Positions 21,562 to 55,055 of a stretch of 64,000 nucleotides of DNA are shown here, in pieces. The stretch lies in NCBI GenBank assembly GCA_965644295.1, contig CBFFRP010000419.1:186001-250000 (forward strand), read 5' to 3'. Below the pieces are notes generated by a model, which searched no databases, was not told the origin of the DNA, and worked only from the letters and a program-made list of their open reading frames with translations. Position 1 is the first letter of the stretch, and every line of letters begins with the position of its first letter. The position numbers were made by a program, and so were the translations under genes. The stretch comes from Paraphysomonas bandaiensis. Lineage: Eukaryota; Protista; Chrysophyceae.

Positions 21562-21750
21562 TTTTTTGACCTGATATTGGCTCAACAGAGCGCTCATATT
21601 AGCACCGGGCAAATATAGACATTCAACTTCAATACTCGGTTCAACAGAAACTCACTTCTATCTTAATTATATGATAATGACAGTCATATGTACGTGATTT
21701 CATTATTGTGCACAATTATGGAGAAAACACAATCATCATGAGTTTGACAT
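21562..21750 (+). repeat. Dispersed repeat family C, copy 1
   Basis: TTGGCTCAACAGA.CGCTCATATTAGCACCG...TTCAACTTCAATA.TCGGTTCAACAGAA recurs in the same orientation at about 45155-45343. Confidence 0.8.
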
Positions 21751-25659: not shown

Positions 25660-25953
25660 TGTTGGAAATTGCTCATTTTAAGCTAGATCACAGAGAGAAT
25701 TTGTCGTAAGACTAGATAGATTTATTAATAACGTTTACACGAAGTTGTGATAAACAACACTAACTCATTTTGATCCACGCATAATATCCTACATTTGCGC
25801 ACCTCTCGTTACTGAACATATCTTGAAAGATCAAACTATTTCAGTTTCTCAATATCATCACAGCATTTGTACATCACTATATTTCACTGTATTCTTGTAC
25901 ATTGTCTTCAAGTCACATACTGAATATACTAGAATAAGATCAATATTCTAATA
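25660..25953 (-). mobile_element. Solo Copia-type LTR (294 bp) with 5-bp TSD ATCAG
   Basis: Plus strand reads TGTTGGAAAT...TATTCTAATA, flanked by ATCAG at 25655-25659 and 25954-25958. Homologous to the LTRs adjoining gag at 47440 and 52157. Confidence 0.92.
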
Positions 25954-44885: not shown

Positions 44886-45154
44886 AAGTGCAGTAAGTTT
44901 TGTACGAAACCTCTCTCTATTTAGCTATTATTTAACGTTGCAAATATTTTTATGATGACGTATTGCTTTCATTAATATGACTTAATAATTCATATTATCT
45001 TTGAATATTATGCAAAATGTTATTTACTGATGTCAGTAGCCGGTCAGTTGTAGGTCATTACCCGCACTGTAATTAATCTGTGTTACCAAAATATCGTTAT
45101 TAATAGAATATCATAACGTCAATCACATCGGATTATGTCCAATTTTTTCTCAAA

Positions 45155-45343
45155 TTGGACCTCATTTTGGCTCAACAGAACGCTCATATTAGCACCGAGC
45201 ATACATATATAGACGTTCAACTTCAATATTCGGTTCAACAGAAGCTTTCTTCTATCTTGATTATGATATTGGCAGTCCTCTGTACTAGCTATGTGATTTC
45301 ATTATATTACACATTTGTAGAGAAGCCACAGTGATGAGTCAAC
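45155..45343 (+). repeat. Dispersed repeat family C, copy 2
   Basis: Direct-repeat match to about 21562-21750. Confidence 0.8.
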
Positions 45344-45357
45344 TATCCAAAGCTTAA

Positions 45358-45647
45358 TGGAAATTGCTCATTTTAAGCTAGATCACTGAGAGAATTTGTC
45401 GTAAGACTAGATAGATTTATTAATATCGTTTACACGAAATTGTGATAACCAACACTAACTCATTTTAATCCATGCATAATATCCTACGTATGCGAACCTC
45501 GCGTTACTGAACATATCTTGAAAGATCAAACTATTTCAGTTTCTCAATATCATCATAGAATTTGTACACCACTATATTTCACTGTATTCTCGTACATTGT
45601 CTTCAAGTAACATACTGAATATACTAGAATAAGATCCATATTTTAAT
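45358..45647 (-). mobile_element. Copia-type LTR copy with eroded ends
   Basis: Closely similar along its length to the solo LTR at 25660-25953. Confidence 0.88.
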
Positions 45648-45680
45648 CCTTCGACTGCTGTATAAGGTCATATTGATCTC

Positions 45681-45744
45681 TGCCCCATTCTGAGCGCGTA
45701 CTTAGGTAGAGCCGGGTGGGTACTAACTAATACTTGATTTATGT
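45681..45744 (+). mobile_element. Left-end fragment of the TGCCCCAT MITE
   Basis: TGCCCCATTCTGAGCGCGTACTTAGGTAGAGCCGGGTGGG is identical to the start of 53611-53896. Confidence 0.85.
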
Positions 45745-45745
45745 G

Positions 45746-46403
45746 TGGAGACCTTTGGTAATCTTTTTCCATCGCTTGAGTAATGACAACACCTCTCAAT
45801 CGATTTTGATACGCTGCGTCCCATACGTATCTTTTGTTTTATACCGCTGGAAACAAACTCCCGTGTCTCCCAGTCGATATAATTATACTTTTTACTGGGT
45901 TGTAACTTCAGTTCACTATAGTCGAGTGACCGCCGCGGAAGCACCTCCATCACCCCGCTGCACAACAAAAGAAGAATAAAGGATTGTATCTCCTGTAGTT
46001 GTTCCATACTCAATTGTTTGACGTACATTAGTTTCATAATTTTTGGTTTCATTTGCGTGTGTATTCGGACCATCTCGGTAAAATCTACCCAATTGGCAGA
46101 TTCGCGATCGGTTTTAGTTTGTTCTTTTTGTTTTGCATTGTAAATTTCAATATCTTCTTGCATGAGTCTACTATATATGTCATTACCCGTGAGTATATAA
46201 AGGGCCGAACACGTCGTTTTACGTCCACTGATGTTTGGAATCCGTGTAATATAATCTATCAGTTGCTTTGTTTTATTTTGTATGTTGTCTTTACTAATAC
46301 CCGTCGCATTCAATGCGGAATTTATGAGTGACACGTACGTACGTACCGAACTGTCAGCCAATTTGGGTCGGTTTAAAAGAATAGTTTGTTTAATTGAATT
46401 CAT
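45746..46403 (-). pseudogene. OLV11-like tyrosine recombinase of Polinton-like viruses/virophages; frameshifted and truncated
   Basis: Motifs RPKLADSSVRTYVS, RKTTCSAL, YN...KEQTKT..E.ANWV, LQEIQSFILL, PRRSLDY and NYID. Past a 1-nt deletion near 45851 another frame continues FQRYKTKDTYGTQRIKID*EVLSLLKRW. The catalytic HxxR/Tyr region is missing. Confidence 0.8.
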
Positions 46404-46419
46404 TGCTTTTTATTAAACG

Positions 46420-46887
46420 TCATATAAAAATACGACGCAACCATTCATACAAAACCAAAATTTGAATTAGTTTTGCCTTTAGCACAATTCCACACATGCC
46501 ACGTGATTTCCATACATACATTTCCAGAATCATTCGAATCTTGGTTGATTTCGGAATGAGTTCACACAGTGGGATTTCAGCCGTGATTTTTTCTTTGTCG
46601 GTTCCCAACACCCCAATTTTGGTGTAGTCGGGAATCGGTTTGCGAAATGTTTTTACCACGGGCACCCGTATTGTGATCGTGTTTGGTTTCAAGTCGTGAG
46701 ATTTTAGTATTGGTTGATAATCCAAATCACTAAAACGTGCCTCCAAATATTCGTCCAATACTCTAAACGCACGATATTCAATCGATTCAGAGGAAACCTG
46801 CAATTGAAGTTTTCTAAAATCCTTACCGCTGTCATATAAATCCGATGCTGCATTTGCAACTTTGAGTTTTAAAGGCATGGCGATCAT
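46420..46887 (-). CDS. Virus-like ORF, putative OB-fold ssDNA-binding protein (NCLDV DUF2738/T7 gp2.5-like)
   Basis: Intronless, ending 16 bp upstream of the recombinase ATG. The C-terminal LIPKSTKIRMILEMYVWKSRGMCGIVLKAKLIQI resembles the W..(F/C)G.....Q strand pair of this SSB family. Confidence 0.45.
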   Translation of the reverse strand: MIAMPLKLKVANAASDLYDSGKDFRKLQLQVSSESIEYRAFRVLDEYLEARFSDLDYQPILKSHDLKPNTITIRVPVVKTFRKPIPDYTKIGVLGTDKEKITAEIPLCELIPKSTKIRMILEMYVWKSRGMCGIVLKAKLIQILVLYEWLRRIFI

Positions 46888-46959
46888 ACAGAAACCCAGT
46901 CGTTTGAGTGAATGGACTGTTCGACCAACGTTTAATAATCAAACGTTATGCATCGAAAT

Positions 46960-47440
46960 CCTGTAGTTCCTTCAGCAGTAGTTCGAACCGTAGTATGTAG
47001 TCCTTCGCAGTCTCCTCCGGACGCATCCGAAAGGAACCATACTGAGTTAACAGATCACTTTTATTCTGTTCTGCTTCTTAAAACTCATCAATCATCACAT
47101 GCGTTTTGAATCTGTTACTACCACTCCCATCAGCCTTGAACCCTCTATGCAAGAGATGGAATTTACGCAGCGCCTTCGGAGAATGCTGCACTGCTTCCCT
47201 GCAGTAAGAATACGCTATGGCGTTCGCCTTTCAATACCTCTTTACAGCCTGTCTGTACGCCTTCTCCTCCATTAACGTAAGTGGCTGTTCCCCGAAGTCA
47301 CTTTCCTTAGGTGGCAGTTCCACCGCTACTTCACTCTGCTTCTTTCTCATGAGCAATGTCTCAAAATCCTCAATCCATTGTTCAAGGTTATTCTCGTTGA
47401 ACTGCGGAAATGCTCCTCTATCCTCCTCGCTCGCTACCAT
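46960..47440 (-). pseudogene. Truncated Copia gag, copy 1, with PBS at 47428-47439
   Basis: Inverted copy of 52451-52951 with stops and a deletion. It encodes MVASEEDRGAFPQF...FRMRPEETAKDY.LRFELLLKELQ. Confidence 0.85.
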
Positions 47441-47739
47441 GTTGGAAAACGCTCATTTTTACTTAGATCAAAAAGAGATTTAGTTGTTAGACTAGATAGA
47501 ATTATTATAATCGTTTACACGAATTGTGATAAACAACACAAACTCGTTTAGCACCATGCATAAATCACTACTTATGTAGACCTTTCGCTACTAAACATAT
47601 CTTGAACGAGCAAACTATTTCAGTTTCTCAATATAATAACAGCATCTACACATCACCATACTTGACTGTATTCTCGTACATTGTCTTCAAGTACCACACT
47701 GAATATACTAGGATCTAGGATACAATCCATATTCTAATA
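47440..47739 (-). mobile_element. Copia 5' LTR, copy 1 (300 bp)
   Basis: Element strand reads TATTAGAATA...TTTCCAACA, immediately followed by TGGTAGCGAGCG. Inverted near-copy of 52157-52451. Confidence 0.9.
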
Positions 47740-47964
47740 GGGGGCGATAACAATATATTGCCAGCAAAAATAAATAATAATAATATTTTAAAGACCAATA
47801 TTGATATATATTGGGCGCTAAAAATGGCTCGATTGGTAGTTAGTATAGGTTACAACATGACGAAAACCCAATAAAGCAAAATGTAGCAACTAGTACTCTC
47901 AAAGTGTTCTAACTCTTTGTCACTGTCATTCTCGGCATGATCGGACGGTCCATCATCGATGACC

Positions 47965-48190
47965 TGTAGCAGTCTACAAGTGCTTGTTGAAGCGAAGGAA
48001 CAGCAGAAGTTCGAGGCGTCGTGGGGTCATTATTCCTTGTCACAAGTGTGTCATGATTATCTTGGCTCTGCTGAACAAACGCCTCACAACGTTAGCTTGA
48101 CTGAACATGTGCTTGTTGGTCGATTGATACTGAGTGTCAAGTTGTTGTCGCAACTTCTTGCTGGCTCTGTGGCTTTCAAATGCAGCAGCA
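47965..48190 (-). pseudogene. Second hAT transposase C-terminal remnant
   Basis: Minus strand reads QYQSTNKHMFSQANVVRRLFSRAKIIMTHL*QGIMTPRRLELLLFLRFNKHL*TA, homologous to 38686-38845, with two in-frame stops. Confidence 0.8.
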
Positions 48191-48717
48191 TTGTTTCTTC
48201 CATATGCTACTTCGACGGCAAAATGGTTTGATCAAAACACATTATGAGCAGAGATGGAGAATCCACTGGAACTATATTGGAAGTCTTTTATTTAGCAATA
48301 GGCGTTAAAAGCCTGCACCAATTTAGTAGCTGATGACAGGAAGCTATTGGGCAAATATGCACCATTTTCCAGCAATTTTACGTGTATCCATCGTTTGGGC
48401 TCTGAGTGTGTGTGTGTGTATATGTGTGTATGTTGTATTTGTGTGTGTGTGTGTGCAAGGGAGGTCATGATTTGGTGATGATGAGGAAAAATATACGAGT
48501 GTTGATTTGCAACAAGATACGACATTCTTGTCGGTAGGTACGTACAGAAGGACATATCCAAAATATGCAATCTGAGAAAGCTGGAAGTGTGTAGCAGTGT
48601 GTGTAATATAGTTGTGTGTTAAAAGATTGCATACATTAGTGGTTGGTATATTGAAATAAGAGATATATTTAACTCGCCTACGATATCTAACTCCTTATTA
48701 AAGAGTGAAGGAGAGAT

Positions 48718-51700
48718 ATGCTGGGCTTGTATTTGAACCAAATCATCTTTTTATTAGCTGGTCTGATGACTGTGAAGGCTACTACTGAAATAATTCCTGG
48801 TCAAACATTAGTACTGACTTATGACGAATATGTGAACTACAATTACTTTATTAATTTATCAAACACGAGCCTTGAGGTGTTAGTGAACGGCTTTACCTCC
48901 GATGAGGACCTGAGTGGCACGATAGTGACCATGTATGCCTCTGTGGGAGCAGACAATGTCCCAACCACAGATGATTACGATATCAAATGTGATTCCAGTA
49001 CTTTCACTTCATCTGGGTCATCACCGTCAACTCTTGATTGTCGCCTCTCGGGACTTTATCTGAGTGGCCAGGACGTGGTTAATATAATGTTCCATGCGGG
49101 ATCTGACGGGATTAGTGGTGACTATGTCGGGCGGGAAATGAGCATTACTACCACATTTTCACCAGATAACTTGCAAGCAACAAATGAGTGGGAGCTTAAT
49201 CAACAATTAACTTTTCATTATGCCGAAGGTGGACAATACCTGTTTGAAATCAGTCTTCCTTCAGATCATGTGGATGAAGGGTTAATTCTCTATGGAATCA
49301 GTAAGTTTCGAATTGCATGTAGAAATCAATGATTAATAACTATATCGGTAAGGTAATGATGAGGACCTCTCTTTTCTACCTGCCACTGTATATATTGGGC
49401 TGGGGTGGGTTCCCTCGTCGTCAGAATATGACATTAAGTGTGATAAATTAACTTACACCGAGGGCACCGCTAGCTCTTCAACACTTGACTGCCGCCTCAG
49501 CCTGGAGTCACTACAGTCACACACGAAAGTGTATGTTCTTTTTAGCATGGGATCAGACGGCCAATCAGATACTTACTTCCAACGCTCGGCAACTCTTGAG
49601 GTCTCACAATATACCCAGTATTATACTGCTAATATAGGAGAGCCGGTGACCATACAGTACAGCGAAAGTGGGACGCAATATGTATATGTAGACCTGACTG
49701 ACTTGCCATTGTACAATGATTTATTTTTATACGGCTCTACTGATGACGTGGACTTGACACACGTCATTGCAGAAGTGTACCTCGGATTTAATGGGAGGTA
49801 AATCTTATAAAGTTATTCCTGTGTACCGGTATTTTAGAGTATTATATGTATGTCCAGATGCTTGTACACATTTCTATGCGATACCCCCAGCCTCTGTTAC
49901 TGATAATGTGTAACAGGGTTCCTTCAACGCAGTCGTATGACGTGCGCTGCGATCGTGACGACTACAGCACTCACGGTGCGACGTCCTCCACTCTCGACTG
50001 CCGTGTGTCATCGACAACATTGAAAGGTGTAAAATCAATCACGATGTACGTGTACGCTCTCGATGACGGCTTATCGTACAAATACCTTCTGCGCGAGATG
50101 TCGTTTACATTTAAATATAATCCTGCCATTTTTGCTCTGGTGCCCGGTGAACCAACTATTGTTTCGTATTGCGAAGGCTACACATATTTATCTGTAGATG
50201 TATCCAACCGATCCGCTAGCGAAGAACTGATCATTCATGGCAGTACGTCTGATACAGATATTACGTATGTACTCAACACATTCTATATTGGATACGACTG
50301 GATGCCTACGTCAACTTCCGCCTACAACTCGAAATGTGAACGTTCTTCTTATGAATGGTATGGTGCTTCGCCAAACACGCTTGACTGCCGTATATCCATC
50401 GCTGATTTAAGTGACCATAATACAGTGTACATTCTAATGTATTCATCTCATGATACAAATTATTTGTTGCGTGATATGACGATCACTGCATCCTTCCACC
50501 AAGCAGCCTACGACTTAGTTGTTGACGAACCACTAGTTATCGATTATGCAGAATCAACCACATACATCATATCGATGGATATATCGAATAGACCAGAGGA
50601 TAGTGATTTATTCATTACCGGGATTACCTCTGATGACGATTTGACCACGGTGTTAGCTTCTCTATACTTTGGGCTGGATGGTCGACTGCCTTACTCCAAT
50701 TCATACGACTTCATGTGTGACCACACCAGCTACACTACCTACGGTGCATCTACCGATACTCTCGACTGCCGTATTTCTCGATTTTCGTTGGAAGGACATA
50801 CTTCGATAACGATTAAATTGTACACTCAGAGCGATTCGTCATCTTATAGCTATTTTCAGCGTCAAATGACTCTGTCTGCGACGTATCAGTCGTCTGTATT
50901 TGAATTACTTCCGGGTACACCACTGGTTGTGGACTACGCTGAATTGGGATGGTATTCTATTACTCTTAATGCAGCCGCTGTGCCATCCGACAGCGAAGTG
51001 CTAATTACTGGTACCACTGATGACACGGATTTGAGCACTGCTATCGCAAAACTCTATATCGCATTTGATTGGATGCCTACGGGCTCCTCTGGGTATGATA
51101 TTTTGTGTACTCCGTCGACTTACACATCGTCCGGTGCCTCGCCATCGGCGTTGAATTGTCGTCTTCCACGTGAATATATTGACGACTGCACCTCTGTAAA
51201 CATCCTTATGTACACGTACTCCGATGACACTTCTACAACTTATTTACATCGATCAATGCAACTAACAGCTATGTACTCTCCCATTATTACTACGCTGCTA
51301 CCCAACGTTCCTCAAACTCTCTTCTATGCCGAAGAGTCATCTTACTCTTTCGTTTTGGATGTGTCTACGCGAGAGTCAACATGGGATGTGTTGTTGACTG
51401 GCTATACTGAAGATACAGACATTAGCAATGTGATAGTCAGTTTATACATGGGTTTTGGTGGTCGAATCCCAACGACTTCAGCGTATGACCTAAAGTGCGA
51501 TCGCAACACGGAGAGTGTATATGGAGGCTCCTCTGCAACACTAGATTGCGATCTTTTAGCGGAACAGTTAGAAGGATACACCAAGATAAATATCCTCGCT
51601 GTGTCGCTGTCAGATGGCCTCTCGACTGAGTATTACCAGCGCGAAATGCCCCTGCAGGCAATATATCCGCAAATTGCCAACGCAACTCGAAGCTCTCTCT

Positions 51701-51900
51701 GGCACCCCCCGCAGTACCCTCCAGAATCCTCCAGTACCTCTGCTTCTGCAAGCAGGAATGCGCCGAAGCTGTTGTGGGGAGGTGCTGTTGTGGCCGCTGT
51801 AGTAGGCATAGGTGCGCTGGTTGCTATGTTTTTGACTCGCCAACAAAGTATTAAGGATTATTCCATGAGCTATTCACTACTGAATCAAGAAACTGTGTGA
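48718..51900 (+). CDS. Type-I membrane surface protein with seven ~130-aa repeats, 3 exons
   Basis: Signal peptide; introns 49301-49352 and 49798-49916 restore the frame. Seven repeats of G.T.D.DL..V...Y.G...P....YD..C-x16-C are followed by a Ser/Pro stalk, a TM helix (GGAVVAAVVGIGALVAMFL) and a short tail. Confidence 0.88.
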
Positions 51901-52017
51901 GCACTAAACACTCCTGTGGCTACTTCGCTGTTAATTGGGCCAATTTACAATGTATTGGCAATTAATTATACATCATATCTATTTCATACTGCAACCTTGC
52001 AACTTCGAGTGTGATCG

Positions 52018-52156
52018 CGCTCCATACTGAGCGCGTACTTAGGTAGAGCCAGGTGGGGGCCGGGTGGGTACCTAACTAATACTTGATTATGTCCCACACG
52101 TTATTTGCTAGATACCGACTGAACCCAGCTAGCTACATCATTATCACACAGTATTC
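52018..52156 (+). mobile_element. Left half of the TGCCCCAT MITE, interrupted by the Copia insertion
   Basis: Matches about 53611-53749 and stops exactly where the LTR starts at 52157. Confidence 0.85.
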
Positions 52157-52451
52157 TATTAGAATATGGATTTTATCCTAGTATATTCAATGTGGTACTT
52201 GAAGACAATGTACGAGAATACAGTCAAGTATAGTGATGTGTAGATGCTGCTATTATATTGAGAAAACTGAAATAGTTTGCTCGTTCAAGATATGTTTAGT
52301 AGCGAAAGGTCTACATAAGTAGTGATTTATGCATGGTGCTAAACGAGTTTGTGTTGTTTATCACAATTCGTGTAAACGATTATAATTAAGTCTATCTAGT
52401 CTAACAACTAAATCTCTCTTTGATCGAAGTAAGGATGAGCGTTTTCCAACA
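52157..52451 (+). mobile_element. Copia 5' LTR, copy 2 (295 bp)
   Basis: TATTAGAATA...TTTTCCAACA followed by the PBS-like TGGTAGCGAGCG at 52452-52463. Confidence 0.9.
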
Positions 52452-53455
52452 TGGTAGCGAGCGAGGAGGATAGAGGAGCATTTCCGCAGTTCAACGAGAA
52501 TAACCTTGAACAATGGATTGAGGATTTTGAGACATTCCTCATGAGAAAGAAGCAGAGTGAAGTAGCGGTGGAACTGCCACTTAAGGAAAGTGACTTCGGG
52601 GAACAGCCACTCACGTTAATGGGAGGAGAAGACGTACAGACAGGCTGTAAAGAGGTATTGAAAGGCGAACGCCATAGCGTATTCTTACTGCAGGGAAGCA
52701 GTGCAGCATTCTCCGAAGGCGCTGAGTAAATTCCATCTCTTGCATAAAGGGTTCAAGGCTGATGGGAGTGGTAGTAACAGATTCAAAACGCATGTGATGA
52801 TTGATGAGTTGAAGAAATGTTTTGCTGGAAAGAAAGCAGAACAGAATGAAAGTGATCTGTTAACTCAGTATGGTTCCTTTCGGATGCGTCCGGAGGAGAC
52901 TGCGAAGGACTACACACTACGGTTCGAACTCCTGCTGAAGGAACTACAGGAGCAGCAGCAGGACATATCGGAGTTGTTTGCTGAATGAGGAATATGGTCA
53001 ATTGCGAGTTGGGTTATATTTGATGGATGATGATGTTGATTATGTAACGTTATCACGAAAAATTGAACGCTATGATGATACCATGGCTGGGAAAGAAGCG
53101 TTAGAGAAGAAGCGCAAAAGAGTGGAGGAGTTGAACTTCATCGATAAAGGGAAATGGTCTCGAAAAGAGCAGGATCAGCGCAAGAAGAGCAGCGGTAGGA
53201 AGAAGAAGCCGAGGAAGAAGGATAAAGAAATATCTGGACAGCGACCTGGGAGTGCAGAATACACAGATTGCAGAAAGTACAAGTCAATGGAACATCTTGC
53301 TGCTGATTGTCCAAAGATATGAAGAAAAAGTCTACTCGAGGAGGAGAGATTGATGGACGTAAGCCAGATAAGAGGTTATTGACAGTGGAGAACATTCGAC
53401 GAGGAGAACCGCTTGACTTATCTGATGACGACGAAGCAAACATGATAGAGCATGA
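52451..53455 (+). pseudogene. Copia gag, copy 2, frameshifted; no pol
   Basis: Across frames it shows the UBN2/gag_2-type FRMRPEETAKDYTLRFELLLKELQ, then LNEEYGQL, and a degenerate zinc knuckle CRKYKSMEHLAADC. No protease, integrase or RT follows. Confidence 0.85.
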
Positions 53456-53610
53456 AGAGTATATAACATGTCATAATTCTCTAGCTACAGGAAGCTACAT
53501 GCGCCATTTAAGAAAACTACTTCTTATTACACGCTCTCCCTAGGTCCACATGACCACACACACCTCACGATGAACATACTACAACAACACATTGTCCCAT
53601 GCATCATAAG

Positions 53611-53896
53611 TGCCCCATTCTGAGCGCGTACTTAGGTAGAGCCGGGTGGGGGCCGGGAGGGTACCTAACTAATACTTGATTATGTCCCACACGTTATTAT
53701 CTAGCTACCTACTGAACCCAACTAGCTACATCATTATCACACGGTATTCAGCGCTGAATATGCAGTGAGACCCCGAGTGGGGAACCGCTGAACTCTGAGC
53801 AATGTGTACATAGGTAGAGGTGCGCTGTCGCAACACTCAGCAGCACCCACTAGGGGGGGCGCACGCAGTGATTATTTACGCTGTCAGTATGGGGCA
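53611..53896. mobile_element. 286-bp MITE with 13-bp TIRs
   Basis: TIRs TGCCCCATTCTGA and TGCCCCATACTGA (12/13). Partial copies lie at 45681 and 52018. No clear TSD. Confidence 0.8.
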
Positions 53897-54315
53897 ATCT
53901 CCATGGTGCAAGTGATCTAACTTCATCACCAGGACTTTGAAACTTCAATAATATGAATTTCAGGGTTTGGGTCACATTGTGTTTATCAGGATATTATGTG
54001 CCTTATATCATACACACATCATTCAATCAGTTGTACTATTAAGCGTATTGTATATAAATGTGATGTTGATGCAAATTAAGGCAATATAAATCCTTTTGTG
54101 TGGCTACAACGGTTTACATTCATCATCACACATATGAAACTATTTATGTACTTCATCCTTTCACGTGACATAAAAGATGCTAGATTAGTATAGTTAATAA
54201 TTATTTATATTTTATATGATATACTTTTGTAGCCGTGGATATGGTAGTCTTTGTCAAGCAGCGTGGTGCGATCTTAATGACTAGCACTAAATATGGAATC
54301 TACGCAAGTATTTAT

Positions 54316-54617
54316 TTGGAAATTGCTCATTCTTAACTAGATCCCAGAGAGAATTTGTCGTTAGACTAGATAGATTAATTAATATCGTTTACACGAATTG
54401 TGACAAACAACACAATCTCATTTTGCTCCATACATAATATCCTACATATGTGAACTTCTCGTTACTAAACACTAAACATATCTTGAAAGATCAAACTATT
54501 TCAGTTTCTCAATATCATCACAGCATGTATGTGTACATCACTATATTTCACTGTATTCTCGTACATTGTCTTCAAGTGACACACTGAATATACTATAATA
54601 TAATCCATATTCTAATA
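54316..54617 (-). mobile_element. Solo Copia-type LTR copy
   Basis: TTGGAAATTGCTCATT...TATTCTAATA, closely similar to 25660-25953. No clean TSD. Confidence 0.88.
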
Positions 54618-55055
54618 GAATAACGAGACAGCTATTAGGATTCAGCGTAATACATGATTGTATCTGTGAGTTATAATGTTCAATGAAATATATCATGAAC
54701 TGAATTAGAGAGAGTATCTGTCGAAGATACATGATCGTCATCATTATCAGTCACAATTCTAACTATTCCGTTGTGCAAGATAGTTATATTCTATATTGTT
54801 ATTCATAATTCTCACTCTACTGTGTTCATTGCTTACACTCTAATAATCACAACATTGTTTACTATTATAAAGATCAATTCTTTATTACAACAATAGTCCT
54901 ATATGTTAGTACGGATTGTTGGGTCGGTTTAATAGTGGTGAGACGCTATCTAACAATAGTATTGCAATATATTGTTCCCTAGCCCTGGCATAGAGAGCCT
55001 CAAAATACAACATCTACTTTGGATAATTACGAATTACAAACAGCTATGACAGAAG

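What the first reader, a model, noticed from the sequence alone, without database searches (positions are those of the whole stretch)
45746..46957. Endogenous Polinton-like virus/virophage fragment (OLV11-type tyrosine recombinase plus putative SSB) fused to a Copia gag
Seen: two intronless, co-oriented ORFs only 16 bp apart, unlike the spacing of the host genes. One has the motif series RP.L..SS..TY.S, RKT..SAL, Q.KT.....NW, PRRS.DY and, after a 1-nt frameshift, F..YKT..TYG.Q. Known: this series is typical of OLV11-like tyrosine recombinases used as integrases by Polinton-like viruses and some virophages. Inference: this is a decayed piece of an integrated PLV. It directly abuts a truncated Copia gag at about 46960 and is cut at the other end by a MITE fragment, which suggests PLV infection of this lineage and perhaps intact copies elsewhere in the genome.
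Basis: partly seen in the sequence, partly recalled or inferred. Interest (0 to 1): 0.8.

Follow-up and report, generated by a model that had tools for sequence, protein, structure and literature searches.

The report
Broken small-virus integrase relic in protist
This is a 1.2-kb broken scrap of viral DNA, likely from a small integrating DNA virus, stuck between pieces of jumping genes in what is likely a golden-alga-type protist; it keeps a cut-off recombinase gene and a likely DNA-binding gene, and such viral remains are ordinary in these protists.

Summary
Window 46403→45749 (minus strand) holds the first three quarters of a ~295-aa tyrosine recombinase family found on virophage- and Polinton-like contigs. 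It has a frameshift and a stop, and a MITE piece cuts it off before the conserved R-H/K and Tyr. It is 89% identical over 130 aa to a Paraphysomonas-labelled protein; single-strand DNA binding is only a language-model lead. Public contigs span the MITE joint fully and the gag joint by 18-25 letters. One run has the same MITE joint with an unbroken gene start and no gag, so the gag join is likely a later deletion, not a working fusion. Two runs hold a longer recombinase copy. No capsid, ATPase or terminal repeat is linked, so virophage, PLV or mriyavirus-like donor cannot be told apart. Endogenous viruses of this kind are documented in chrysophytes, so this is a new example of a known thing.

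The parts
45358..45647 (-). LTR of a related Copia-type subfamily with damaged ends; a neighbour, not the partner of the gag LTR
   Evidence: 92% to the solo LTR at 25663-25952 (which has a 5-bp target duplication CTGAT), only 79.5% to the LTR at 47440-47739; no shared target duplication seen
45681..45744 (+). 5' piece of a MITE that replaces the 3' end of the recombinase gene
   Evidence: Matches 53611-53685 and 52012-52092; full copy 53611-53896 has 20-nt terminal inverted repeats; joint crossed by contigs of runs X9 and X10
45749..46403 (-). OLV11-like tyrosine recombinase pseudogene: frameshift near 45853, stop at 45796-45798, C-terminal quarter missing
   Evidence: 494 relatives at E<=0.001; family profile positions 2-219 of 293, E 2.8e-68 read through with X at the breaks; full-length relative P0003 folds like Cre/Xer
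46404..46419 (.). 16-bp AT-rich spacer between the two viral genes
   Evidence: Sequence
46420..46958 (-). Second viral-type gene, likely of the DUF2738/DUF5871 (SSB-like) kind; first ~9 codons lost, stop at 46946-46948, frameshift near 46866-46869
   Evidence: 89% over 130 aa and 56% over 43 aa to P0001 in two frames; atlas look-alikes DUF2738/DUF5871/Pox_I3 clusters at 0.87-0.91; unbroken start seen in runs X9 and X11
46959..47440 (-). 5' part of a Copia-type gag, two stops, joined to the second viral gene at one shared base
   Evidence: 94% over 803 nt (with LTR) to a second copy at 52156-52951, whose gag matches PF14223 at E 6.7e-4, below the curated cut-off
47430..47439 (-). Primer-binding-type site TGGTAGCGAG directly after the LTR end
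   Evidence: Sequence; likeness to the initiator tRNA-Met site of Copia elements is recalled, not tested
47440..47739 (-). 5' LTR of the Copia-type element
   Evidence: 95.6% to the LTR of the second gag copy; family of five copies in the window

Best explanation
A 1.2-kb two-gene fragment with a broken tyrosine recombinase lies between a MITE piece and a Copia-type gag, and it is likely the dead remnant of a small integrating DNA virus of the virophage/Polinton-like kind. Inferred history: (1) the virus entered the host chromosome, probably through its own recombinase acting on a circular genome, as proposed for OLV11-like enzymes in PMC4642659 (inferred; no attachment site seen). (2) At least two related copies arose (shown in run X3). 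(3) In one copy a MITE-linked rearrangement removed the recombinase 3' end with its catalytic R-H/K and Tyr (joint shown; mechanism inferred). (4) Later, in the window's lineage, a deletion joined the middle of a neighbouring Copia gag to codon ~10 of the second gene and removed what lay between (joint shown; order inferred from run X9). (5) Point lesions accumulated (shown). The copy in the window cannot make an active integrase or a gag fusion protein.
For: Family of ~290-310-aa proteins, nearest full-length relative 49% identical over 217 aa; 12 of 51 members match Pfam Phage_integrase; P0003 model pLDDT 96 matches XerA/Cre and a Qinghai Lake virophage protein (32% identity) and an Aureococcus virus protein, the latter virus named as an OLV11-like carrier in PMC4642659. 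25 of 30 atlas hits fall in the set whose top three clusters (0.98) are 94-100% viral, commonest Preplasmiviricota. Relatives sit on IMG/VR contigs of 7-27 kb; 4 of the 9 loci had an ORF above the Pox_A32 cut-off among those scanned, and L004/L005 (one virus) carry Sputnik-type major and minor capsid genes. CpG observed/expected is 1.38 in the fragment; 0 of 50 other same-size stretches of the window reach it (mean 0.78). Contigs cross the joints and show a longer copy. Chrysophytes carry 33-104 capsid genes per genome (PMC10120064), and Paraphysomonas vestita transcriptomes hold PLV capsid genes (PMC7805220).
Against: No capsid, ATPase, polymerase or terminal repeat is linked to the fragment, and no genome was held to look for them. 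The relatives with known context are distant (P0010 and P0179 are 36-37% identical) and do not group with the window's protein; its nearest kin (P0003/P0154, P0007/P0017) have no context. The second gene's look-alikes are mostly labelled Nucleocytoviricota, and no homolog of it was found in the held stretches of the 9 loci (single-sequence test). Fold relatives also occur in giant viruses, and two loci (L007, L008) are short contigs in giant-virus bins.
Confidence: 0.7

Rival explanations
1. The donor was a PLV-sized relative of mriyaviruses and giant viruses that carries a tyrosine recombinase, such as cluster VC134; this would explain a nucleocytovirus-type SSB next to the integrase.
For: Atlas look-alikes of the second gene are DUF2738/DUF5871 clusters, commonest label Nucleocytoviricota. 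Gamadviruses encode a T7-like SSB (PMC11253617). VC134 members are 20-30 kb, mriyavirus-like, and 60% encode a YR (bioRxiv 10.64898/2026.06.19.733378, section 6). A DUF2738/5871 gene is listed in a figure legend that covers PLVs and the dwarf virus Phaglo-G (10.1101/2022.07.28.501842).
Against: The atlas scores are 0.87-0.91 with recognition below its threshold, and taxa rest on few members. The recombinase look-alikes are labelled Preplasmiviricota. Whether VC134 recombinases are of this family was not tested.
Confidence: 0.15
2. The fragment comes from a giant virus genome inserted in the host.
For: Fold relatives of the recombinase occur in Hokovirus, Heterosigma, Aureococcus, Tetraselmis and Pyramimonas viruses; SSB-like look-alikes are nucleocytoviral; L007/L008 lie in giant-virus bins.
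Against: Those giant-virus proteins are 17-25% identical, whereas sequence relatives at 30-50% are ~295-aa proteins, many on contigs of up to 20-28 kb. No other viral gene was noticed among the window's long ORFs by eye (not scanned systematically).
Confidence: 0.08
3. LTR-gag-SSB-recombinase-LTR is one chimeric retroelement (a Copia that captured viral genes, or a DIRS/Ngaro-like element).
For: Two same-direction LTRs flank the 2.4-kb block, and the gag frame runs in frame into the second gene.
Against: The LTRs are 79.5% alike while each is 92-96% alike to other copies, and no target duplication flanks the block. Gag has two stops and a stop follows four codons after the joint. Run X9 has the cassette without gag. 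The second gag copy continues as ordinary gag. No reverse transcriptase gene was seen in the block.
Confidence: 0.03
4. The block is an assembly chimera, or its lesions are assembly errors.
For: PMC10120064 reports that many stops in protist endogenous viruses are assembly artefacts. The gag joint is crossed by only 18-25 letters on the gag side, under the tool's 31-letter rule, and no single contig spans the whole block.
Against: X10 record 1 covers 45700-46053 with 1 difference and no gap, so it carries the MITE joint, the stop and the frameshift; X9 record 20 covers 45700-46959. Contigs in X1, X3 and X8 run across 46959 with 0-1 differences. One of these runs may be the source of the window.
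Confidence: 0.04

Closest known systems
OLV11-like tyrosine recombinases of PLVs and Organic Lake group virophages (Yutin et al. 2015, PMC4642659)
   Same: Same fold class and size; fold matches to a Qinghai Lake virophage and an Aureococcus virus protein; relatives on virophage/PLV-like contigs. That paper also reports a Copia-like insertion disrupting the recombinase of an integrated PLV.
   Different: The window copy lacks the catalytic C-terminal quarter. OLV11 or PgVV ORF3 themselves were not available for direct alignment.
Endogenous PLVs and virophages of chrysophytes (Bellas et al. 2023, PMC10120064; Bellas and Sommaruga 2021, PMC7805220)
   Same: Host group, YR integrase, closeness to LTR retrotransposons; PLV capsid genes in Paraphysomonas vestita transcriptomes.
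   Different: Those are typically 15-30 kb with capsid genes and often TIRs; this is a 1.2-kb relic whose lesions recur in an independent contig.
EMALE virophages interrupted by Ngaro retrotransposons in Cafeteria (Hackl et al. 2021, PMC8547959)
   Same: Virus DNA nested with retrotransposons in a heterotrophic stramenopile.
   Different: Here the retroelement is Copia-type with LTRs, the recombinase is the viral one, and the join is a deletion scar, not a clean insertion.
Mriyaviruses and mriyavirus-like PLV-sized clusters such as VC134 (PMC11253617; bioRxiv 10.64898/2026.06.19.733378)
   Same: T7-like SSB in gamadviruses; YR in 60% of VC134.
   Different: No HUH, VLTF or Mriya48 gene here; mriyaviruses proper lack integration genes.

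Membership tests
Tyrosine recombinase superfamily | Core-binding plus catalytic fold like Cre/Xer/Int | tested here: met
   Model of full-length relative P0003 (pLDDT 96) matches XerA and Cre at E 6e-5 to 1e-4, TM up to 0.61; 12 of 51 members hit PF00589. The window protein itself was not folded.
Tyrosine recombinase superfamily | Complete catalytic set R...K...(H)xxR...H/W...Y | tested here: not met
   The window copy keeps PRRS and YKT but ends at profile position 219; the family's R257, M281-G-H and Y292 (P0003 numbering) are absent. Relatives have them.
OLV11-like recombinases | Direct sequence similarity to OLV11 or PgVV ORF3 | not testable with these tools
   No named OLV11/PgVV sequence came back from any search.
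OLV11-like recombinases | Occurrence in virophages, PLVs and Aureococcus virus | tested here: met
   Fold hits to Qinghai Lake virophage (E 7.6e-10, 32%) and Aureococcus virus (E 1.1e-9); relative on a contig with Sputnik-type capsids.
Polinton-like virus / virophage | Linked major and minor capsid genes and A32-like ATPase | tested here: inconclusive
   None in the 1.2-kb fragment or seen among the window's long ORFs; longer copies could not be read beyond 30 letters; no genome held.
Polinton-like virus / virophage | 15-30 kb element with terminal repeats | tested here: not met
   Both ends of this copy are replaced by transposon DNA; no terminal repeats around it. Says nothing about other copies.
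DUF2738/DUF5871 (SSB-like) proteins | Profile match to PF10927 or PF19196 | tested here: not met
   No such Pfam hit for the window ORF or P0001 at E up to 1 and 5; only language-model look-alikes.
DUF2738/DUF5871 (SSB-like) proteins | OB fold like T7 gp2.5 | tested here: inconclusive
   Single-sequence model had pLDDT 46; its fold search gave 0 hits at E<=0.001 and is meaningless; no PDB sequence hit.
Ty1/Copia LTR retrotransposon (flanking piece) | LTR with 5-bp target duplication, primer site, Copia-type gag | tested here: met
   Solo LTR with CTGAT duplication, TGG-starting site after the LTR; PF14223 at E 6.7e-4, under the cut-off, on the second copy. Pol gene order not testable, pol is absent.
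DIRS/Ngaro/Crypton | Recombinase of the DIRS/Crypton type within an RT-bearing or intron-bearing element with split or inverted repeats | tested here: not met
   Relatives are stand-alone ~295-aa viral-type proteins; no RT or introns in the block; flanking LTRs are Copia-type and unpaired. No DIRS or Crypton sequence was aligned directly.

The most novel reading that the evidence does not exclude
The relic marks an undescribed mosaic small virus of Paraphysomonas-like flagellates that pairs a virophage/PLV-type integrase with a giant-virus/mriyavirus-type SSB. Longer copies, with an unbroken second gene that is on record as a transcript-derived protein, still sit in these genomes and would give a first host for a YR-bearing mriyavirus-like group.
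Probability: 0.15. Interest if true: 0.55.

Novelty: new member of a known kind. Interest (0 to 1): 0.27.

Why it matters
It adds one more chrysophyte lineage with endogenous small DNA virus DNA and shows, across public runs, stages in the dismantling of such an insertion by a MITE and a Copia element. It points to a longer copy worth assembling, since endogenous virophages and PLVs may protect flagellates from giant viruses. It changes no established view unless the longer copy proves to be a new virus type.

Tried and rejected
A word-based search of the recombinase limited to 322-2000-aa proteins found none among 238 candidates; the length band was wrong for this family. Close-relative scans of viral contigs found nothing useful for the window proteins, P0001, P0003 or P0007 (the single hit L001 is a 17-residue match and was dropped). 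Both metagenome scans were empty. Alignments were too divergent for the locus finder. tblastn of P0003 against the phage collection gave no match. Pfam, PHROGs and PDB sequence searches named neither window protein. PF10927 was sought in 2 of 5 handles (3 not held) with no match and no control ringing, which shows nothing. The SSB model was too poor to use. The tree is the quick version, 64 rows, deep branches open; it does not assign virophage or PLV. No RNA holder was listed among the runs; X11 is flagged probably DNA. In X6 the stretch 46819-46925 had little cover; nothing is concluded from that. Rfam gave 2 chance-level hits in 45000-55000. A hAT-like reading of 47850-48230 got no Pfam support. 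Searches of earlier findings by sequence, by words, and by place with words were empty; the two notes on this genome concern Gypsy elements. Literature searches. None listed a paper on this element; 'Paraphysomonas' had 0 hits in 3 supplement files of PMC10120064. Supplements of the bioRxiv preprints, which could show which genome carries DUF2738, were not seen.

Full report
Setting. The window is eukaryotic, with intron-split genes such as a mitochondrial-type Hsp70 and a ubiquitin protease recognised by eye. No genome is held. The host is inferred to be a Paraphysomonas-like chrysophyte, because the only homolog of the second gene is a EukProt protein labelled with taxid 36769, the genus Paraphysomonas. 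No host marker gene was tested.

The recombinase. A search of 1.84 billion representatives with the first 183 residues found 494 relatives at E<=0.001, mostly 285-320 aa. Read through with X at its breaks, the window protein is 49% identical over 217 aa to the full-length P0003 and 97% over 201 aa to P0152, and covers positions 2-219 of a 293-position family profile. The family keeps R158-R159, K191, R257 and Y292 in P0003 numbering; the last two lie beyond the cut. Twelve of 51 members match Pfam Phage_integrase. A P0003 model (pLDDT 96) matches XerA and Cre and, among viral models, proteins of Qinghai Lake virophage, Aureococcus virus and several giant viruses. PMC4642659 (passages) defines OLV11-like recombinases as shared by PLVs, Organic Lake group virophages, PgVV and Aureococcus virus, so the family assignment is well supported though OLV11 itself was not aligned.

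Context of relatives. Three of the 8 viral-contig scans gave loci with full-length relatives, 9 loci in all, on contigs of 7-27 kb. Selected ORFs were scanned: L002, L006, L008 and L009 have an A32-like ATPase above the Pfam cut-off; L004/L005, one virus, have Sputnik-type major and minor capsid genes; L003 and L010 share a 572-580-aa ORF without a Pfam match and have a weak adenain-like protease hit. L007 and L008 are short contigs in giant-virus bins. None of these groups with the window protein in a quick tree of 64 rows; its starred neighbours P0003/P0154 and P0007/P0017 have no known context. The donor class is therefore open.

The second gene. It matches P0001 in two frames, 56% over 43 aa and 89% over 130 aa, so the gene runs from 46958 to 46420 with a stop and a frameshift. 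Pfam, PHROGs and PDB do not name it. The atlas lists DUF2738, DUF5871 and Pox_I3 clusters at 0.87-0.91, commonest label Nucleocytoviricota, with recognition below its threshold. SSB is thus a lead. T7-like SSBs are described for gamadviruses and four giant-virus families (PMC11253617, passages). A DUF2738/5871 gene appears in a legend covering PLVs and a dwarf virus of Phaeocystis (10.1101/2022.07.28.501842, passages and section 12; the figure was not seen, so which genome has it is unknown). No homolog was found in the held stretches of the 9 loci.

The flanks. At 45749 the recombinase gives way to the first ~64 bases of a MITE whose full copy at 53611-53896 has 20-nt inverted ends. At 46959 the second gene meets a gag piece that follows an LTR and a primer-type site; a 94% identical LTR-gag copy lies at 52156-52951 and goes on as gag. 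The LTR family is Copia-like: a solo copy has a 5-bp target duplication and gag weakly matches PF14223. The LTR at 45358-45647 is only 79.5% like the gag LTR, so the two are not a pair. The joint is in mid-gag, not at an LTR end, which fits a deletion. It is in frame, but gag has two stops and another follows four codons later. The fragment has CpG o/e 1.38, reached by 0 of 50 other stretches, and 39% GC against 45-49% in two host coding stretches.

Reads. Seven of the 23 listed runs were laid, all as contigs. X10 record 1 covers 45700-46053 with one difference and no gap, so the MITE joint, the stop and the frameshift are not peculiar to this assembly. X9 record 20 (1421 bases) has the same MITE joint and stop, lacks the frameshifts, and at 46959 continues into letters that by my hand translation give the start of P0001 instead of gag; X11 shows the same continuation. 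The gag joint is crossed in X1, X3 and X8 with 0-1 differences but only 18-25 letters on the gag side, short of the tool's 31-letter rule. X3 record 12 and X11 record 9 continue past 45749 into other letters (214 and 100 bases) that read open in the recombinase frame over the 30 letters shown, and both lack the stop. In X3 two versions of 45909-46053 and of 46706-46824 each have depth 78-89, like the flanks (78-83), which suggests two loci rather than two alleles; contig depth is a rough measure. So a longer copy exists; whether it is whole is unknown.

Mechanism. Shown: the gene content, the lesions, the MITE joint, the longer copy. Inferred: integration by the viral recombinase through a circular form (as proposed in PMC4642659), the order MITE cut first and gag deletion later, and inactivity of this copy, which follows from loss of the catalytic tyrosine.

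Prior knowledge. PMC10120064 (passages) reports 33-104 capsid genes per chrysophyte genome, virophages among them, frequent nearby retrotransposons, and a warning on false stops. PMC7805220 (passages) found three PLV capsid genes in Paraphysomonas vestita transcriptomes. PMC8547959 (passages) describes retrotransposons nested in virophages. bioRxiv 10.64898/2026.06.19.733378 (passages and section 6) describes mriyavirus-like clusters, VC134 with YR in 60%; 10.64898/2026.10.13.758929 (passages) stresses mosaicism. Eight searches listed no paper on this element.

Verdict. Real, correctly read in the main, and a new member of a known kind. Interest 0.27. The open point of value is the identity of the longer copy.

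Noticed in passing
window 46275, run X11 record 9: The contig with the longer recombinase copy ends at 46275 in 21 A letters on the + strand, antisense to the gene. It could be a polyadenylated antisense RNA or a retro-inserted tail; the run is flagged probably DNA.
   Followed up: no
window 52012-53896: A second LTR-gag copy sits between a partial and a whole copy of the same MITE (138-nt direct repeat, 93%); the LTR starts where the first MITE copy stops.
   Followed up: partly
window 25663-25952, 45358-45647, 47440-47739, 52152-52449, 54316-54622: Five copies of a ~300-bp LTR family in two subfamilies; all start TATT or similar rather than the usual TG, and contig depth suggests very many copies in the genome.
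   Followed up: partly
window 48709-51900 (+): A long secreted-looking gene with repeated Ser/Thr/Tyr/Asp-rich modules ending in an LDCR-like motif and a C-terminal membrane segment; not searched.
   Followed up: no
window 47850-48230: Short frames that look by eye like a decayed hAT transposase; Pfam gave no support.
   Followed up: partly
window 45155-45330 and 21565-21731: Another dispersed repeat (79% alike) next to the LTR; with the rest it makes 45100-48250 a cluster of mobile-element debris.
   Followed up: no
L003:3876-5618 and L010:4781-6499: Related 572-580-aa ORFs next to an adenain-like protease on 25-27-kb viral contigs, probably capsid proteins, with no Pfam match.
   Followed up: partly
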